Below, piece after piece: positions 24,001 through 30,000 of a DNA stretch of 64,000 nt. Made by a program: the position numbers. Source of the stretch: Rhizobium sp. Q54. Lineage in GTDB: Bacteria; Pseudomonadota; Alphaproteobacteria; SHVZ01. Within the stretch, counting starts at the first letter, position 1; each line of letters begins with the position of its first letter. Location of the stretch: assembly GCA_945871425.1 (NCBI GenBank), contig CAMBVS010000009.1:1894-65893 (forward strand), written 5' to 3'.

Positions 24001-27000
24001 AATCGTCATCGTGCTCAGCCTGCTGCGGACCGCGCTCGGAACCCAGTCGTCGCCCCCCAACGTGGTGATGATGAGCCTCGCGCTCTTCCTCACCGGCTTC
24101 GTCATGGCGCCGACTTTCACCGAGGCCTACACCAACGGCATCTCTCCCCTGATCGAGGAGCAGATCACCGAGGCGGAAGCCTTCGAAGCGTCGACCCGCC
24201 CGTTCCACAACTTCATGATGAGCCATGTCCGCCAGCAGGATCTCGACCTGTTCATGGGCATGGCCAAGGCGACGCCCGAGCAGGCGGGCGCCAACACGCC
24301 GTTCCACGTGCTCATCCCCGCCTTCATGATCTCGGAGCTCCGGCGTGCCTTCGAGATCGGCTTCCTCCTCTACCTGCCCTTCCTCGTCATCGACATGGTC
24401 ATCGCCTCCGTGCTGATGTCGATGGGCATGATGATGCTGCCGCCAGCGCTGATCTCGCTGCCCTTCAAGCTGATCTTCTTCGTGCTGGTCGACGGCTGGT
24501 ATCTTGTCGCCGGCAGTCTGGTCAGGAGCTTCGGCACCTGATCGCGAGCGTCCCGGCGCGGCCGCCCATCAGTTGATGGCACTGAGCAGCGTGGTCTTGA
24601 GCTTTTCGCGGTAGCTCGTCATGAACGACTGGAACCGGTCGATCTCCTGGAACCGGGCGGACAGCTTCGAGTAGTCGTTGAGCGCGCCTTCCGAGGGATT
24701 GGTGATCAGCCGGAAGGCCTCGCGGAACTGGTTCCGGTCCATGGCCGAGGCGAAGCGCTGGCGGACCTGGCCGAGGCGGGTCGCATCGCCGGCAAGGGCC
24801 AGCGAGACCGCGAGGTTGAGGATCAGCTGGGCGCGCTTCTCGTCGACGGCGCCGGCATCGGCCTCGCCGGCGAGCCGGCCGAAGACGTCCGATGCTTCCT
24901 TCCACTTCGCCGTCTTCCAGGTGATCTCCGCGCGGAGCAGGTCCGCATCCCGGCTCGAGTCCGAGGCGATCAGCCTGAGCGCCTCGTCCGGGCGCTCGAG
25001 TTCGAATATCGCCCGCGCTCGGAGCCTCGCGCGCTCGGCGGCGACGTCGACGGGAAGCCCGCCGACTTCCGAGTCGGCCAGGGCCTTGAAGGCAGCGTCG
25101 GGCTTGCGGTCGAGGAGCCGGATGACGGCCAGCCGCGCGCCCACCCTCGCCTTCTCGATGCCTTCCAGGCGCGACTTGACCTGGCGGTCGAGAAGGTTGG
25201 CGGCACGTTCCAGGAGCTCGACGGCGACCAGGCGGTCGGCGAGACGATTGATGATCTCGTTGCCCTCCGGCCCCGTCGGGGTCAGCTCGCGGAAGTCCTC
25301 GTAGAGCGCCAGCGCCGCCAGCGGCGGGAGCGCGTTGGCCCCGCCTTGCAGGTACAGCTTGGTGAACGCCTGGGTCATCGCGCGCGTGATGTCGCGGGTG
25401 GCCGGGCTGTCGGGGAACGCCGATGCCGTCTGCTTGAGGACGGTGAGACCGTTCCGGATATCACCCTCTTCCAGATAAAGCTGGCCGAGCCGTGTCAACA
25501 TGTCGAGCTCGATGCGATCGCCCCGCCAGACGAAGCGGAGGGATTCGAGCTTCTGGATCGCCTCGCCTCGCGTCGTGGTCTTGCGTGCGAGGTTCTCGTC
25601 GAGGAGCGCCAGCTCGGAACGGATCCTGGCCCAGCGGTCCTCGCCCTGGACCAGCCGGGTCCAGATCTCCGCCGCCGACTCGTAGTCGCCGGCGGCGGCG
25701 AAGATGCGGCCGCGGTAGTAGTCGACCCGCGCCCGCTCCGCCGGTCCGGGGCGCGTGTCGTTGACCGCATCGAGATAGGCGCCGGCAGTACGGTAGTCTC
25801 GGTTGCGAAGCGCGGTCTCCGCCCCCAGAAGCGCAATGTCGGCGACGAAGTTCGGCGGGTAGCCGGGCGGTATGGTGCCCGCCTTGGAGAAGTTCTGGAT
25901 CGCCGCCCGGTAGTCGCCGAGCGCGGTGTTGGTCGCGCCCCGCCACAGCTCGACCTCGGACTTGCCGTTGAGCGAGGCGTCGAAAAGCGCCAGCGCCGCC
26001 TCGTCGTAGCGGGTGAGCGCGAACTTGGTGGCACCGCGGAGCGCCAGGACATCCGGGCGCCCCGCGAGATCCGGGTCCTCGACCTCGATCGTCCGGAGCA
26101 GGCCCGCCGCTTCGGCGGCGAGACCGTGGGCGAAATAGAACCCCGCGAGGTCGAGCCGCGGCTGGCTGCGCGTCACGCGTGTCGCCTCGGCGACCCGGCG
26201 CTGCAGCAGCTGCTTCTGCGCCTGGAACTCGGAGACATTGCCGCGACGCCAGCCGACCATGTCGAAGACGCGGCCCGGCGGCAACGCGCCGAAGGCGTTG
26301 GGGGCACCGTCGGCATTGATCTGGGCCAGCACGTCCGGATGGGTGAAGTTGAGCCCCACGGGGGTGATGAAGGTGACGCCGTCGGGAATCGCCCGAATCG
26401 TCAGCTCGTCGGTCAGCGGCTTCGCGACGATGCCCTGGGCCGTCGGCAGCAGATGGAGGTCCGCATACTGCCGTTCGCCGTCGACACCGCGGCCGAGCTG
26501 GGCCAGGGGGATCACCGTCAACTCGTCGCCGACCTCCGGGTCGCGAACCCGCAGCGGATCGGCCGGATCGGCGATCGCGATGAACATGCGCAGGCCCTGC
26601 TGCCCGGTCTTCTGCACCTCCGGCTGCAGCCCGATGTCGGGACGCAGCTCGGACGCCCGGAGTTCCAGCACCCAGGCGAGCCCGTCGCGCTCCACATGCG
26701 GATTGACGCCGGGAAGGATCGCCATGCGGATGACCGTCCCGGCCGATGACGGAACCTGGATCAGCCCGGCGACCACCTGGGGGTTGGCAGCCTCGATCGC
26801 CGAGAAGTCCGCCGTGCCGGGCTGGTCGAACGCGACCCAGAGGAAGCCGGCGCGACGGAACACGGCGGCGCCGGCGGCGGCCTGCCACTCGAAGCGCAGC
26901 GTCATCGCGTCGCCCCGAGGCTCCGCCTTCACCAGCACCGGCGTGCCCGCCACCGACTGGGGTGTCACCGGCGTCACCGGCGCAGCCTGCGGCGCGCCTT

Positions 27001-30000
27001 CGGTGGCAGGACTCGGAGCGGCGACAGGACTCGGCGCGGCGGCAGGTGAAGGACCGGCCGGCGGTGGCGGCGTCAGCACCCCGCTCGTCGTCGGCGCGGC
27101 AGGACGGGCCGGCTCGGAGACCGGTGCCGATGCCGCCGCCCGCTGCGGAGGTGCGGCGACCGGAGGAGGGCTCGGCGGAGGCTGGGCCGCGGAAGGCGGC
27201 GGCACAGCGGGAACCGCTGGCTTCGGCGCAGGAGCCGGCGCCGCCACGGCGGGCGGCGGAGCGGGTGCCGGTGTCGCGACCGGCGGAGGCGTCGGCGGCG
27301 CTGATGCCTGCGCGCGCGGGGCCGGCGTGGGCGGTGGCGCAGGGGGCGGTGGCGCAGCGGGCGGTGGCGCTGCAGGCGCCGCAGCCGCCTGGCGCGGCGG
27401 CGACGGCGAGGCCGGATCGGCCAGTTCGAAGACGATCAACCGATCCTTCACCTCGGAGCGCATCAGGACCGACTTCTCGAGCTCGACGACGACCGTGCGC
27501 CCGTCGGCGGCGACACGGGCCCCCTTGACCACGCCCGGAAGTCGGCCCGCCAGCTTCGAGAGATCGCCCTCGAAGGGCCGGGCGAAGGTGATGATCAGCC
27601 GGTTGTCGATGCGCTGGGCGGTATAGCGGACCACCGAGGGCCACTCGAAGGAGAGGCGCGCCCCGGCCCCCATCGGCTCGCCGCCGACGATGACCGCGTC
27701 GGCGCGGGCCGCGGCCGGGGCCAGCAAGAGCAGGGCGGCGACGAGCCACACCCTCATCGGCCGTCTCCGCGGACCGGCAGCAGACTCAGCGACACCGGGG
27801 CGCCGCCGAAACCGGCGACGACGAAAGGATCGCCCGGATAGCCGCCCAGCTTCAACGCGCGGACGACCTCCGATGCCCGCGCCAGCGCCAGCTCCCAGGA
27901 GATCTCCGGACCCACAGCGGTTCGCACCTCGAGACGGTTCGGCACATTGGCTAGCAGGTCCGCGATCGCCGCCAGCATCGGCTGGGCGCCCGGCAGCGGC
28001 GTCGGGGCACCGGAGGCGAAGGCGACGTCGGTGGGCGGCGCCAGCATCAGCCGGTCGGGGCGACGCTGCACGCCGAGGCCCGCCAGCGCCGGAATGCGTT
28101 CGATCCGTCCCTCGACCAGCGAGGTGACGTAGTCGAGGTTGAGCGCGAACTCGACCGCCAGGGTCGGCGCCTGCGATGCCGGCGGCGCCGGCGGGGCCAG
28201 CGGACGGGTGCCGAAGGTCGGCAGCTGCTTGGCGAGGCTCGAGGCGATGTCACGGAAGCGCTGGGCGTCGGGGGTGCCCATCGAGAAGATCAGGATGAAG
28301 AAGCACAGGAGAAGCGAGAAGGTATCGATCAAGCTAACCATCCAGATCGGCTTCTCCTTTCCCGGCTGAGGGGGAGCGGGCCATGGCACGGGGCGTTTCA
28401 TGACGCTGCCCCGACCGGCCTCAAGCCGAAGACGAAGCGCGCCGCCTTGGTTGTTGCACGTTCCGTGCCGACGGTGATGGCGGCGGCCGGCGCCCCGTGG
28501 TCAATCAGGGCGCGCGCGATCCGCGCCGCGCGATCGACCGACGCAGCATCGCCATCGGCAACCAGCGCGGTGACGACGAGGAGCGTGCCTTCAGGCGGCA
28601 CAGCCAGCAATGCGGCCATCCGGCGAAGCAACGCGTCCCCCTGACGGGAGACGCCAGTCCCGTCGAACAGCACGTCGAGCGCCATGTCGGTGGTGATCTG
28701 GCCGGTCGACGGATCGCGGCGCAGCGGCGCGACCGGCAGGTCGGTCTCGACCAGGCGTCCGACTCGCTCGGGCAGCGTCCGCTCGGCTTCGACGAAGAGG
28801 TTGGTCGCCTCGTCGGTCGGCGAGCCGAGCGGCAGGTCGGAGGGGAAGCTGGCGCGGATCGAGGCGATGGCCTTGACCGCGCGACCTGCCTCGGGCTGGG
28901 AAACCGAGGCCAGAACGATGAAGAAAGCAAGCAGCACCAGCCACAGGCTCAAGAAAGCCTGTACCGGCAAGAAGGCCTCGGCTCCCCCTCCTGATCCCGG
29001 GCCGTCGACCCCCGACCTTGGCTGGTCCATTCGCCTCCGGCCGTCTGGGTCCCCGCCGGCTCGTGCCTGCGAGAATCCCGTCGATGTCCGACTGATCGTT
29101 GCCTTTATCAGGCATCCGCAGGCCGTTCAACAAGTGCTCGTCCGGTCGCGCCGGCCCCGCCCCTGACCGGATCGACCGGAACTAGCCGGCCAACCGGCTG
29201 CAGGCCAAGGCCTCGGCGAAACCCGAACGGTCCGCGGACCCGCTCATCGATGCTGCCGAAGCGTGTCCAGGACGCTGGAAATCCGCCGTCCGGTGAGGTC
29301 GCGTAAGGGGCAGCTCTCGCAGATTCGCGTCACCGATTCGCCGGGCCGGACAGCCCCGGCGCCCCGCGTCACTAGTTGGGGTTCGGGATCTCTTTGCGCT
29401 CGGCCAGCTGGGTCGTCACTTCCTTCGCCCTCGCCGCGCTCATGCTGGCGAGGATCGGCGCGGTCTTCGCTTCCTTCATCCGCTGGAAGACCTGGAGCAG
29501 CACCTTGAGCTCGAGCTCGTCGAAGATCCGGGCGGCGTCCTTCGGCTTCATCGTCTCGTAGATCTTGACCAGGCTCTTGAGCTCGGTCTCTTCCTGATCG
29601 TTGTGTTTCCGGATCAGCCCCTCGATCTCGTCCTTGATCTTGCGGAGCTCGCCGATCTTCTCCTCGAGCCGCTTCTCGGCGGCCTGGAACAGGACCTCGC
29701 GCTTGACCACCGCCTCCTCGCGGAGGTCGATCTCTTTCCGGCGGGCCGAGAGATTCTGCAGGATCTCGATCTCGGACTGGCTGAACATGATCGGGTCGAG
29801 CGGCTTGCTGTCCTGCTTGGCTGTCGGCTGCGGCGGCTGCTGCTGCGGGGCCTGTGCCTGGGTCGCCGGCGGGGCCGGGGGCGCGGGCTGGCCCGCCTGG
29901 CCGATCGGCCGCGCCGGCTGGTTCTGCTGGGCCTGGACCGGCGTCGTCGGCTGGGCCGCCGGCGCAGGCGCCTGCTGGCCACGTTGCGCCTGGCCTTGCG

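What the first reader, a model, noticed from the sequence alone, without database searches (positions are those of the whole stretch)
24569..29030. Operon of two tandem MotB-like paralogues plus a 1062-aa secreted Pro-rich/TPR protein, with no MotA partner
Both MotB-like proteins keep the plug/TM helix and a degenerate OmpA-like C-terminus but are short (215 and 210 aa). They are translationally coupled to each other and to a very large periplasmic protein that has an internally duplicated N-terminal module (L-x-FEW motif twice), a 200-aa PAPAAP linker and ~600 aa of TPR-like helices. No motA is present in the window. The architecture suggests a periplasmic scaffold or stator-anchoring complex (a MotC/FliK-like role?) that does not match described families.
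Basis: partly seen in the sequence, partly recalled or inferred. Interest (0 to 1): 0.55.

Follow-up and report, generated by a model that had tools for sequence, protein, structure and literature searches.

The report
Flagellar stator scaffold with dead MotB
These three genes end a flagellar motor operon and encode a MotB/PomB-type stator subunit, a conserved MotB copy that has lost its ion-binding aspartate, and a large periplasmic scaffold protein of the known PflA/MotK type; only the aspartate-less copy is new.

Summary
Three minus-strand genes overlap by ATGA: 28398-29030 (210 aa), 27754-28401 (215 aa) and 24569-27757 (1062 aa). They close a run fliL-fliL'-fliM-DUF6468-motE in an uncultured Rhodospirillales-like MAG, and no motA lies in the window.

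The 1062-aa protein belongs to a described class. It has a signal peptide, an AMIN beta-sandwich, a 158-aa Pro/Ala linker, two more beta domains and a ~580-aa TPR superhelix. That is the PflA/MotK design, and its best PDB fold match is very probably C. jejuni PflA. It follows a MotE/FlgY (E-ring) gene, as MotK and Caulobacter CC_2058 do.

The 215-aa protein is a PomB/MotB stator subunit. It keeps the invariant W-x5-D channel motif and the plug, but in this lineage its peptidoglycan-binding motifs are lost.

The 210-aa protein is a true MotB homologue with the channel Asp replaced, mostly by Ser. It forms a family of 195-739 clusters with no Pfam or NCBIfam name and no paper found.

The order motE-(cheYZ)-motB-like1-motB-like2-scaffold recurs in about 58 of 80 related loci.

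Verdict: a new variant of a known stator-scaffold module, of moderate interest.

The parts
24569..27757 (-). 1062-aa PflA/MotK-class periplasmic scaffold ('spoke') protein
   Evidence: TPR families hit in Pfam. At least 564 genome stretches matching the search patterns encode a relative, and the best 80 are mostly Rhodospirillales-type taxa or alphaproteobacterial MAGs. Its domains are listed in the sub-parts below. The best PDB fold match of residues 270-1062 is 9hmf_K of the C. jejuni flagellar scaffold.
27701..27757 (-). Predicted Sec signal peptide, residues 1-19 (MRVWLVAALLLLAPAAARA|DA)
   Evidence: Read directly from the sequence: a hydrophobic core followed by A-R-A. No signal-peptide predictor was run.
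27419..27697 (-). AMIN-like beta-sandwich 1, residues 21-113, containing LSFEW
   Evidence: AlphaFold2 model with pLDDT 88 and eight strands. Foldseek top hits are the AmiC AMIN domain 4bin (E 1.3e-3, TMq 0.59) and PilQ AMIN domains 3jc8_Qa and 4aqz. Some homologues reach the Pfam PF24837 AMIN-like cut-off.
26945..27418 (-). Pro/Ala-rich linker, residues 114-271
   Evidence: 158 aa, 39% Pro and 29% Ala. In many homologues this region holds one more AMIN-like module, which is missing here.
26654..26944 (-). Beta domain 2, residues 272-368: a duplicate of the AMIN-like module, containing LRFEW
   Evidence: BLASTP against module 1 gives E 2e-7 at 33% identity. It is modelled as a beta-sandwich with pLDDT mostly above 90.
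26366..26623 (-). Beta domain 3, residues 379-464, with the conserved DPEVGD motif (D, V, G, D invariant) at residue 406
   Evidence: D406, V409, G410 and D411 are invariant and P407 nearly so. Modelled as all-beta.
24593..26338 (-). TPR-like alpha-superhelix, residues 474-1055
   Evidence: About 30 helices at high confidence. Pfam TPR_6, TPR_19 and TPR_2 hit. This is the most conserved part of the family.
27754..28401 (-). MotB-like 2: 215-aa PomB/MotB-type stator B subunit with channel Asp D26, a plug and a degenerate OmpA-like domain
   Evidence: Pfam MotB_plug E 3.8e-11. The family profile matches PomB/MotB chains at E 1e-38. W20 and D26 are invariant in 35 sequences. The GH[TS]D and RRVD motifs are lost here and in 16 other sequences of the 70.
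28398..29030 (-). MotB-like 1: 210-aa MotB paralogue without the channel Asp (Ser28 in its place), with a conserved TM/plug and a degenerate OmpA-like domain
   Evidence: Profile matches to MotB/PomB at E 1e-10 to 1e-7. hhalign against MotB-like 2 gives 99.2%. No acidic residue lies between residues 19 and 46. No Asp was seen in the TM segment of the 65 locus copies. Only 2 of 147 cluster representatives carry W-x5-D. No Pfam or NCBIfam family is assigned.
29259..29342 (-). Relic of the CheZ active-site region in the motE/motB-like-1 spacer
   Evidence: tblastn with Nisaea CheZ gives 11/28 identities, E 0.001. In 35 related loci an intact cheY-cheZ pair lies upstream of the scaffold gene, and in the two loci read directly it sits in this spacer.
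29372..30148 (-). MotE/FlgY/FlbB-family protein (candidate E-ring subunit), 258 aa, with an N-terminal TM
   Evidence: Pfam MgtE_N scores 25.4 bits against a cut-off of 25.9. NCBIfam collar_FlbB gives E 1.2e-6, below cut-off. Its position matches motE in the Caulobacter and Erythrobacter clusters (PMC13023049).
30158..30688 (-). DUF6468 membrane protein at the position of pflI
   Evidence: Pfam DUF6468 E 2.4e-20. The same position is occupied in the Erythrobacter cluster. Equating it with PflI rests on synteny and PMC10954123 only.
30729..31793 (-). fliM
   Evidence: TIGR01397 E 3.9e-90.
31804..32836 (-). Two tandem fliL paralogues (31804-32295 and 32303-32836), the likely start of the operon
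   Evidence: Pfam FliL E 5e-11 and 9.4e-20.

Best explanation
The finding is the stator and scaffold end of a flagellar motor operon. The full order is fliL-fliL'-fliM-DUF6468(pflI position)-motE-motB-like1-motB-like2-scaffold, in a Rhodospirillales-type alphaproteobacterium.

Shown here:
- The 1062-aa protein has the PflA/MotK design. It has a probable signal peptide (read from the sequence only), an AMIN beta-sandwich, a long Pro/Ala linker, further beta domains and a TPR superhelix.
- MotB-like 2 is a PomB/MotB homologue with the channel Asp and the plug.
- MotB-like 1 is a MotB homologue without the Asp.
- All three genes are translationally coupled, and their order is conserved in relatives.

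Inferred by analogy with MotE-MotK-MotB2 (C. sphaeroides) and FlgY-PflA-PflB-MotB (Campylobacter, Helicobacter):
- MotE dimers form an E-ring around the MS-ring.
- The TPR arm of the large protein radiates from that ring as a spoke.
- Its AMIN module or modules bind peptidoglycan.
- Its outer end holds the periplasmic domains of the MotB-type proteins. This would recruit MotA/MotB units, with MotA encoded elsewhere, and keep them unplugged at a fixed radius.

In this lineage MotB-like 2 has lost its own peptidoglycan-binding motifs. Anchoring is therefore probably delegated to the scaffold.

MotB-like 1 cannot carry ions. It is most likely a structural B-type subunit. Either it pairs with MotB-like 2 inside the MotA pentamer, or it acts as a membrane anchor between scaffold and stator.
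For: Flagellar context.

Conserved order: ~58 of 80 loci keep the full order or its motB-like1-motB-like2-scaffold end, and 44 show the exact full order.

ATGA overlaps at both junctions.

Scaffold class:
- The AMIN fold of residues 21-113 matches 4bin, 3jc8_Qa and 4aqz.
- The module is duplicated.
- The model of residues 270-1062 has pLDDT 89.7. Its top PDB match is 9hmf_K, E 1.5e-10, ahead of generic TPR proteins.
- That chain has 773 residues, the number of residues in PflA 16-788, which matches the full-length PflA modelled after signal-peptide removal in PMC12222027.
- A homologue at tblastn E 1e-17 lies in an Erythrobacter cluster, fliL-fliM-DUF6468-MgtE_N protein-...-TPR protein. This mirrors Caulobacter CC_2062 to CC_2058.

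Literature:
- MotK has an AMIN domain plus a TPR region, binds MotE and MotB2, and is needed for rotation.
- A CC_2058 mutant is Mot- (PMC10954123).
- PflA and MotK share the beta-sandwich-linker-TPR design (PMC12054838, PMC13023049).

MotB-like 2.

MotB-like 1.
Against: - No sequence-level hit links the large protein to PflA. The profile search of PDB sequences found only generic TPR proteins and PilQ AMIN domains.
- The MotK sequence itself could not be obtained, so homology to it is untested.
- The TM-scores of the PflA match are low (0.23-0.24), as expected for a flexible superhelix, so the match supports the architecture rather than a rigid fit.
- The MotE call rests on sub-threshold HMM scores plus synteny.
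- No interaction, localisation or phenotype is known for any protein of this family.
- Whether the genome has another motAB set, and where motA lies, could not be checked.
- Six related loci have motE followed by the scaffold gene without the MotB pair, so the pair is not obligatory for this scaffold.
- A more distant clade of the large protein is encoded outside any flagellar cluster.
Confidence: 0.6

Rival explanations
1. Obligate heteromeric stator. MotB-like 1 and MotB-like 2 form a heterodimer that fills the MotA pentamer. The unit would then have one ion-binding Asp instead of two.
For: The two genes are adjacent, overlap by ATGA and co-occur in almost every locus that has either. The TM and plug are the best conserved part of MotB-like 1 and resemble the MotB TM: LSLFLLLLAFFI against DLvSLLLaFFV. 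That pattern suggests it still packs against a MotA-type partner. From my own knowledge, unchecked here: the Myxococcus AglR motor uses two different TolR-like subunits, AglQ and AglS, and Aquifex has tandem motB1 and motB2.
Against: No complex prediction or co-evolution test could be run. The current rotary models use both Asp residues alternately, so a one-Asp unit might not turn. Some loci appear to have MotB-like 2 without a detectable MotB-like 1 (L036, L076).
Confidence: 0.25
2. MotB-like 1 is a static membrane adaptor, a functional analogue of PflB or MotY. It would be a former MotB that no longer enters a MotA pentamer. It would tether the scaffold's AMIN/linker end to the inner membrane next to the live stator.
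For: The ion-binding Asp is lost throughout the family. The OmpA-like domain is retained in fold signal but lacks most peptidoglycan-binding motifs. [quoted passage not shown] No PflB homologue is evident in this window.
Against: A plain membrane anchor would not need such strict conservation of a MotB-like TM and plug. There is no direct evidence of any contact.
Confidence: 0.25
3. The MotB pair is an accessory or alternative stator set, for example for another ion, load or regulatory state. It would act alongside a canonical motAB encoded elsewhere, which does the main work.
For: No motA lies in the window or within 8 kb in 80 loci. Six loci have the scaffold without the pair. A cheY-cheZ pair sits directly upstream in at least 35 relatives, which hints at regulatory coupling. 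The closest solved relatives of MotB-like 2 are PomB-type, that is Na+-type, subunits.
Against: The pair sits inside the core fliL-fliM-motE operon and is conserved across the group, which fits a main rather than an auxiliary role. Ion type cannot be read from these data.
Confidence: 0.15
4. One reading: a previously undescribed periplasmic complex with a MotC- or FliK-like role that matches no known family.
For: No MotC, FliK or other named family hits the large protein. Sources annotate it only as a TPR protein or hypothetical protein.
Against: The architecture, fold matches and gene context place it in the PflA/MotK/CC_2058 class (PMC10954123, PMC12054838, PMC13023049). FliK requires a hook-length-control domain, and none was found.
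Confidence: 0.07
5. A non-flagellar system built from MotB-like parts, such as a Tol/Exb-like or Zorya-like system, that happens to lie in a flagellar region.
For: MotB/TolR/ExbD/ZorB folds are reused in many systems, and there is a weak ExbD hit at E 0.0037.
Against: The genes always lie between motE and the scaffold gene in a fliL-fliM operon. No MotA/ExbB/ZorA-type partner is adjacent. The best solved relatives are flagellar PomB and MotB.
Confidence: 0.03

Closest known systems
MotK of Cereibacter sphaeroides Fla2 and CC_2058 of Caulobacter crescentus (PMC10954123)
   Same: Both are secreted proteins with an N-terminal AMIN-like beta domain, proline-rich disordered stretches and a TPR-like helical region. 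Both are encoded at the end of the fliL-(fliM)-pflI-motE operon. Both are proposed to anchor to peptidoglycan and to recruit or activate MotB.
   Different: The window protein is much larger: 1062 aa against 652 aa for MotK. It has a duplicated AMIN-like module plus a third beta domain. Here two MotB-type genes sit between motE and the scaffold gene, where Paracoccaceae have motA. Sequence homology to MotK itself could not be tested.
PflA of Campylobacter jejuni and Helicobacter pylori (PMC12222027, PMC12054838; PDB 9hmf)
   Same: Both have a beta-sandwich, an unstructured linker and a long TPR superhelix. PflA is the top PDB fold match of residues 270-1062. PflA partners the MotE homologue FlgY and forms radial spokes that position the stator ring.
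   Different: No sequence-level similarity was detected. PflA works with PflB, and no PflB-like gene is present here. The N-terminal domain here is clearly AMIN-like: AmiC and PilQ are the top hits, and the PflA N-terminal domain ranks only 50th.
PomB/MotB stator B subunits (for example V. alginolyticus PomB, PDB 8bri and 8zyv)
   Same: MotB-like 2 shares the TM helix with W-x5-D, the plug and the OmpA-like domain. MotB-like 1 shares the overall layout.
   Different: Both are short, 210-215 aa against the 315-321-residue PomB chains in the PDB. MotB-like 2 of this lineage lacks the GH[TS]D and RRVD motifs. MotB-like 1 lacks the Asp altogether. No motA is adjacent.
MotE (S. meliloti, C. sphaeroides), FlgY and FlbB E-ring proteins (PMC13023049)
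   Same: The upstream neighbour at 29372-30148 has an MgtE_N-like C-terminal domain, an N-terminal TM like CC_2059, and the same operon position.
   Different: Its HMM scores lie just below the curated cut-offs. It carries a long Gln/Pro/Ala-rich insert between the TM and the conserved C-terminal part.
MotC of Sinorhizobium meliloti
   Same: MotC is a periplasmic TPR-rich protein that depends on MotE and acts on MotB. The reviews cited propose it as a distant relative of MotK and PflA.
   Different: No MotC-named family hit was found. According to PMC13023049, MotC lacks the N-terminal AMIN domain.

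Membership tests
PflA/MotK-class flagellar spoke/scaffold proteins | Exported to the periplasm through an N-terminal signal peptide | tested here: inconclusive
   The N-terminus MRVWLVAALLLLAPAAARA|DA looks like a Sec signal when read directly. No predictor was available.
PflA/MotK-class flagellar spoke/scaffold proteins | N-terminal beta-sandwich domain (AMIN-like in MotK) | tested here: met
   The model has pLDDT 88. Its top fold hits are the AmiC AMIN domain 4bin and the PilQ AMIN domains. 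These are the same best hits reported for MotK (PMC10954123).
PflA/MotK-class flagellar spoke/scaffold proteins | Long unstructured linker between the beta domain and the TPR part | tested here: met
   Residues 114-271 are 39% Pro and 29% Ala.
PflA/MotK-class flagellar spoke/scaffold proteins | Extended C-terminal TPR superhelix | tested here: met
   Helical repeats span residues 474-1055 at high confidence. TPR Pfam families hit. The top fold hit is 9hmf_K.
PflA/MotK-class flagellar spoke/scaffold proteins | Encoded next to, or in an operon with, a MotE/FlgY/FlbB homologue in a flagellar cluster | tested here: met
   A gene with a near-threshold MgtE_N match lies 1.6 kb upstream on the same strand. 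The order is conserved in about 58 of 80 loci.
PflA/MotK-class flagellar spoke/scaffold proteins | Detectable sequence homology to MotK, CC_2058 or PflA | tested here: inconclusive
   PflA: no sequence hit. MotK and CC_2058: their sequences could not be obtained, and the Roseobacteraceae plasmids checked carry no motK. A homologue at E 1e-17 sits at the CC_2058-equivalent position in Erythrobacter.
PflA/MotK-class flagellar spoke/scaffold proteins | Binds MotE and MotB and is required for rotation but not for assembly | not testable with these tools
   This needs genetics and biochemistry.
MotB/PomB stator B subunit (215-aa protein) | Single TM helix carrying the conserved ion-binding Asp | tested here: met
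   W20 and D26 are invariant in 35 family members. The segment aligns with the PomB TM.
MotB/PomB stator B subunit (215-aa protein) | Plug segment after the TM | tested here: met
   Pfam MotB_plug scores 42.8 bits against a cut-off of 24.
MotB/PomB stator B subunit (215-aa protein) | OmpA-like C-terminal domain with peptidoglycan-binding motifs | tested here: inconclusive
   The fold signal is present at family level, E 1e-38 to PomB including the C-terminal domain. The window protein scores below the Pfam OmpA cut-off and lacks GH[TS]D and RRVD.
MotB/PomB stator B subunit (215-aa protein) | A MotA/PomA partner in the genome | not testable with these tools
   None lies in the window or near 80 related loci. 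The rest of the genome could not be searched.
MotB/PomB stator B subunit (210-aa protein) | Single TM helix carrying the conserved ion-binding Asp | tested here: not met
   Ser28 occupies the Asp position, and no acidic residue lies between residues 19 and 46. The same holds in the 65 locus copies and in 145 of 147 representatives. It is therefore a MotB homologue, but it should not be filed as a functional stator B subunit.
MotB/PomB stator B subunit (210-aa protein) | Homology to MotB over the TM/plug and the OmpA-like domain | tested here: met
   The profile matches MotB/PomB chains at E 1e-10 to 1e-7 in both regions. hhalign against the 215-aa family gives 99.2%.
FliK (hook-length control) | C-terminal Flg_hook domain | tested here: not met
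   No such Pfam or NCBIfam hit at E up to 1.
MotC (Sinorhizobium) | Match to a MotC family model | tested here: inconclusive
   No MotC-named hit at E up to 1. I could not verify that the library holds a MotC model.
MotE/FlgY/FlbB (neighbouring gene 29372-30148) | C-terminal MgtE_N (ARM-like) domain after a coiled coil, with an N-terminal TM or signal peptide | tested here: inconclusive
   MgtE_N scores 25.4 bits against a cut-off of 25.9. collar_FlbB scores 28.5 bits against a cut-off of 110. An N-terminal hydrophobic helix is present. The protein was not modelled.

The most novel reading that the evidence does not exclude
MotB-like 1 is an obligate, ion-dead partner of the live MotB-like 2. 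It would replace one of the two B chains in the stator, giving a one-Asp asymmetric unit. Alternatively it would form pseudo-stator units that the PflA/MotK-type scaffold places around the rotor. Many Rhodospirillales flagellar motors would then run on a heteromeric B stalk. That design has not been described for flagella, and it would test the alternating two-Asp model of MotA5B2 rotation.
Probability: 0.2. Interest if true: 0.75.

Novelty: new variant of a known kind. Interest (0 to 1): 0.45.

Why it matters
Recent cryo-ET work argues that an E-ring (FlgY/MotE/FlbB) with TPR spokes (PflA/MotK/FlcA) is an ancient and widespread part of flagellar motors outside the beta- and gamma-proteobacteria. 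In alphaproteobacteria only C. sphaeroides MotK and MotE and S. meliloti MotC and MotE have been studied experimentally.

This locus shows that a large, mostly marine and soil group carries a bigger version of the spoke protein hard-wired to two MotB-type genes. The group includes Azospirillum, Magnetospirillum, Thalassospira and Nisaea.

Two points are directly testable:
- Whether a scaffold with its own AMIN anchor can take over wall anchoring from a MotB that has lost its peptidoglycan-binding motifs.
- What a conserved MotB copy without the ion-binding Asp does in a stator.

In practical terms, hundreds of 'hypothetical protein' and 'TPR protein' annotations could be renamed.

Tried and rejected
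1. FliK or MotC orthology of the large protein: no such HMM hits.
2. motA in the window or near relatives: none found. The query was validated.
3. Direct comparison with C. sphaeroides MotK:
   - The sequence is printed only in a TIF figure.
   - tblastn of the scaffold against plasmids gave only Sphingobium and Erythrobacter.
   - The Roseobacteraceae plasmids found with MotE have fliL-fliM-x-motE but no motK.
4. Sequence search of MotE against the PDB: nothing.
5. Profile of the large protein against PDB sequences: only generic TPR proteins and PilQ AMIN domains.
6. Sigma-70 promoter, terminator and CtrA-box scans gave nothing informative. Operon limits therefore rest on spacing and synteny only.
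7. Literature searches for DUF6468, for an Asp-less MotB-like protein and for Azospirillum or Magnetospirillum stators found nothing on this gene pair.
8. The idea that MotB-like 1 is a decaying duplicate was rejected. The family is broad and its TM is strongly conserved.
9. A Zorya, Tol or Exb reading was rejected on context.

Full report
**What is there.** The window has about 68% G+C. It matches contig CANKRH010000023.1 of assembly GCA_947485285.1 over the stretch compared. The closest named relatives of the large protein are Rhodospirillales-type taxa such as Nisaea, Thalassobaculum, Thalassospira, Azospirillum and Magnetospirillum.

The minus strand between 24.5 and 32.9 kb carries one close-packed gene run:
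- fliL (32303-32836)
- a second fliL paralogue (31804-32295)
- fliM (30729-31793)
- a DUF6468 membrane protein (30158-30688)
- a MotE/FlgY/FlbB-like protein (29372-30148)
- a 340-bp spacer
- the three genes of the finding

On the other strand lie an flhB C-terminal-domain gene, fliO and fliP, with fliE, flgC and flgB beyond them. From 33 kb onward the window holds sugar-modification genes. The first 21 kb hold housekeeping genes.

**Check of the observation.** The three ORFs exist as described. Both junctions are ATGA overlaps. No MotA is encoded in the window.

The large protein has LSFEW at residue 35 and LRFEW at residue 287. The two modules are related at BLASTP E 2e-7. The Pro/Ala linker is 158 aa. 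The helical part covers about 580 aa.

**The large protein.** Family libraries give only TPR hits, and sources call it a TPR or hypothetical protein. Some homologues carry Pfam PF24837, AMIN-like. Many homologues have an additional AMIN-like module in the region where this protein has only linker.

An AlphaFold2 model of residues 1-125 (pLDDT 88) is an eight-stranded sandwich. Its best PDB matches are the AMIN domain of AmiC (4bin) and the AMIN domains of PilQ. Velez-Gonzalez et al. reported the same two best hits for MotK (PMC10954123).

A model of residues 270-1062 (pLDDT 89.7) shows three parts:
- a second sandwich (residues 272-368)
- a third beta domain (residues 379-464), which holds the conserved DPEVGD motif
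- a TPR superhelix (residues 474-1055)

Its best PDB match is chain K of 9hmf, the periplasmic scaffold of the C. jejuni motor, at E 1.5e-10 and ahead of all generic TPR proteins. That chain has 773 residues. This is the number of residues in PflA 16-788, which matches the full-length PflA modelled after signal-peptide removal in the paper behind the entry; PflB was modelled as 113-820. Chain K is therefore very probably PflA. This is an inference from length.

PflA, MotK and Caulobacter CC_2058 are described as sharing a beta-sandwich, a disordered linker and a TPR domain. They are also described as partners of FlgY/MotE, the E-ring protein (PMC12054838, PMC13023049, PMC11870540). MotK binds MotE and MotB2 and is needed for rotation, and a CC_2058 mutant is Mot- (PMC10954123).

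A sequence homologue of the window protein (tblastn E 1e-17) sits in an Erythrobacter plasmid cluster. The order there is fliL-fliM-DUF6468-MgtE_N protein-...-TPR protein, the Caulobacter-like arrangement.

I therefore place the protein in the PflA/MotK class on architecture, fold and context. Sequence homology to MotK itself could not be tested. No sequence similarity to PflA is detectable.

**The two MotB-like proteins are not equivalent.**

*The 215-aa protein.*
- It passes Pfam MotB_plug.
- A profile of 35 family members matches PomB and MotB chains at E 1e-38, over the TM/plug and the C-terminal domain.
- About 40 of 70 family members keep both canonical OmpA-type motifs, GH[TS]D and RRVD. 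Seventeen have lost both, including the window protein; the Azospirillum copies keep a GHAE variant of the first but lack RRVD. The window protein also scores below the Pfam OmpA cut-off.

*The 210-aa protein.*
- It has no family assignment at all.
- Its profile nevertheless matches MotB/PomB in both regions, at E 1e-10 to 1e-7.
- hhalign against the 215-aa family gives 99.2% probability over 194 columns.
- In that alignment the Asp column holds Ser28 in the window protein and a small residue (Ser, Gly or Ala) in the other members.
- No acidic residue lies between residues 19 and 46.
- The TM and plug, consensus LSLFLLLLAFFIxLN...S, are the best conserved part.
- A profile search of 1.84 billion cluster representatives found 739 relatives at E up to 1e-3 and 195 at E up to 1e-10. 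Almost all are 200-260 aa long. Only 2 of the 147 inspected carry W-x5-D.

This is a sizeable, coherent and unnamed family of Asp-less MotB paralogues. It is not a decaying copy.

**Conservation of the arrangement.** Of these, 564 encode a relative of the large protein, and the best 80 loci were kept.

- Forty-four of the 80 show exactly FliL > FliM > DUF6468 > MotE > MotB-like1 > MotB-like2 > scaffold. About 58 have this order or a trivially different one, and most of the rest are cut contigs.
- Six loci have motE followed by the scaffold gene without the MotB pair.
- Thirty-five loci have both a cheY and a cheZ upstream of the scaffold gene. In the two loci read directly the pair lies between motE and MotB-like 1.
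- In the window that spacer holds only a 28-codon relic of the CheZ active-site region. The pair was probably deleted in this lineage.
- No MotA is found within 8 kb in any of the 80 loci.
- A more distant clade of the large protein (about 1280 aa, 26-31% identity) is encoded outside flagellar clusters.

**How it most likely works.**

Shown: the domain content, the homologies, the translational coupling and the conserved order.

Inferred from the characterised MotE-MotK-MotB2 and FlgY-PflA-PflB-MotB systems:
- MotE forms an E-ring around the MS-ring.
- The TPR arm of the large protein is a radial spoke attached to that ring.
- The AMIN module or modules bind peptidoglycan.
- The distal part holds the periplasmic domains of the MotB-type proteins. 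MotA/MotB units would thus be recruited and kept open at a fixed radius.

In the window lineage MotB-like 2 lacks its own wall-binding motifs, so the scaffold probably supplies the anchor.

MotB-like 1 cannot conduct ions. I consider two roles about equally likely:
- a partner of MotB-like 2 inside the MotA pentamer
- a membrane adaptor between scaffold and stator, analogous in function to PflB

A third possibility is that the pair is an accessory stator set. None of these could be tested here.

**Comparison, novelty and score.** The module is a member of the known E-ring/spoke/stator-scaffold kind. Three things are new:
- the enlarged, multi-AMIN version of the spoke protein
- its fixed linkage to two MotB-type genes where Paracoccaceae have motA
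- above all, the conserved Asp-less MotB paralogue, for which I found no family model and no paper

I rate it a new variant of a known kind, with interest 0.45. The dead MotB paralogue remains a real and testable open point for motor specialists.

Noticed in passing
window 29259-29342 (-): A 28-codon relic of the CheZ active-site region lies in the 340-bp spacer between motE and MotB-like 1 (LRDLTGRR against FQDLTGQR; tblastn E 0.001). In 35 related loci an intact cheY-cheZ pair lies upstream of the scaffold gene, and in the two loci read directly it fills this spacer. The pair seems to have been deleted in this lineage.
   Followed up: partly
window 31804-32295 and 32303-32836 (-): There are two tandem FliL paralogues upstream of fliM. 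Most related loci show only one FliL hit; three show two.
   Followed up: no
window 22690-23172 (+): A small protein consists only of the C-terminal domain of FlhB (Pfam Bac_export_2, profile positions 261-335). It is followed by a 104-aa ORF with no family (23169-23483), then fliO and fliP.
   Followed up: no
window about 33200-64000: A large block of sugar-modification genes lies directly next to the flagellar genes. It includes FkbM, TylF and other methyltransferases, three DegT-type aminotransferases, epimerases/dehydratases, two UDP-sugar dehydrogenases, a cytidylyltransferase-kinase, a PhyH dioxygenase and two TPR proteins. It may be a flagellin glycosylation island.
   Followed up: no
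window 3-2855 (-): A long ORF (951 codons, running off the window edge) has a weak MobA/MobL relaxase-like hit (E 1.4e-4, below cut-off). The region at 4-6 kb has a lower G+C content (0.62). This may be a remnant of a mobile element.
   Followed up: no
L082 7001-10837 (protein P0111): A distant clade of the scaffold family (about 1250-1340 aa, 26-31% identity, with AMIN-like modules and TPR) is encoded as a lone gene among metabolic genes, not in a flagellar cluster.
   Followed up: partly
L048, L074, L052, L054, L058, L068, L076, L038 and others (MotB-like 2 genes): MotB-like 2 has lost the OmpA-type peptidoglycan-binding motifs in several separate lineages. Seventeen of 70 sequences lack both motifs. 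This suggests repeated relaxation of direct wall binding where the AMIN-bearing scaffold is present.
   Followed up: partly
L081 (Erythrobacter aureus plasmid NZ_CP031358.1): A 408-kb plasmid carries a full Caulobacter-like flagellar cluster. Its scaffold homologue has only 548 aa and is TPR-only, preceded by a separate 76-aa ORF and an oppositely oriented extra fliL.
   Followed up: no
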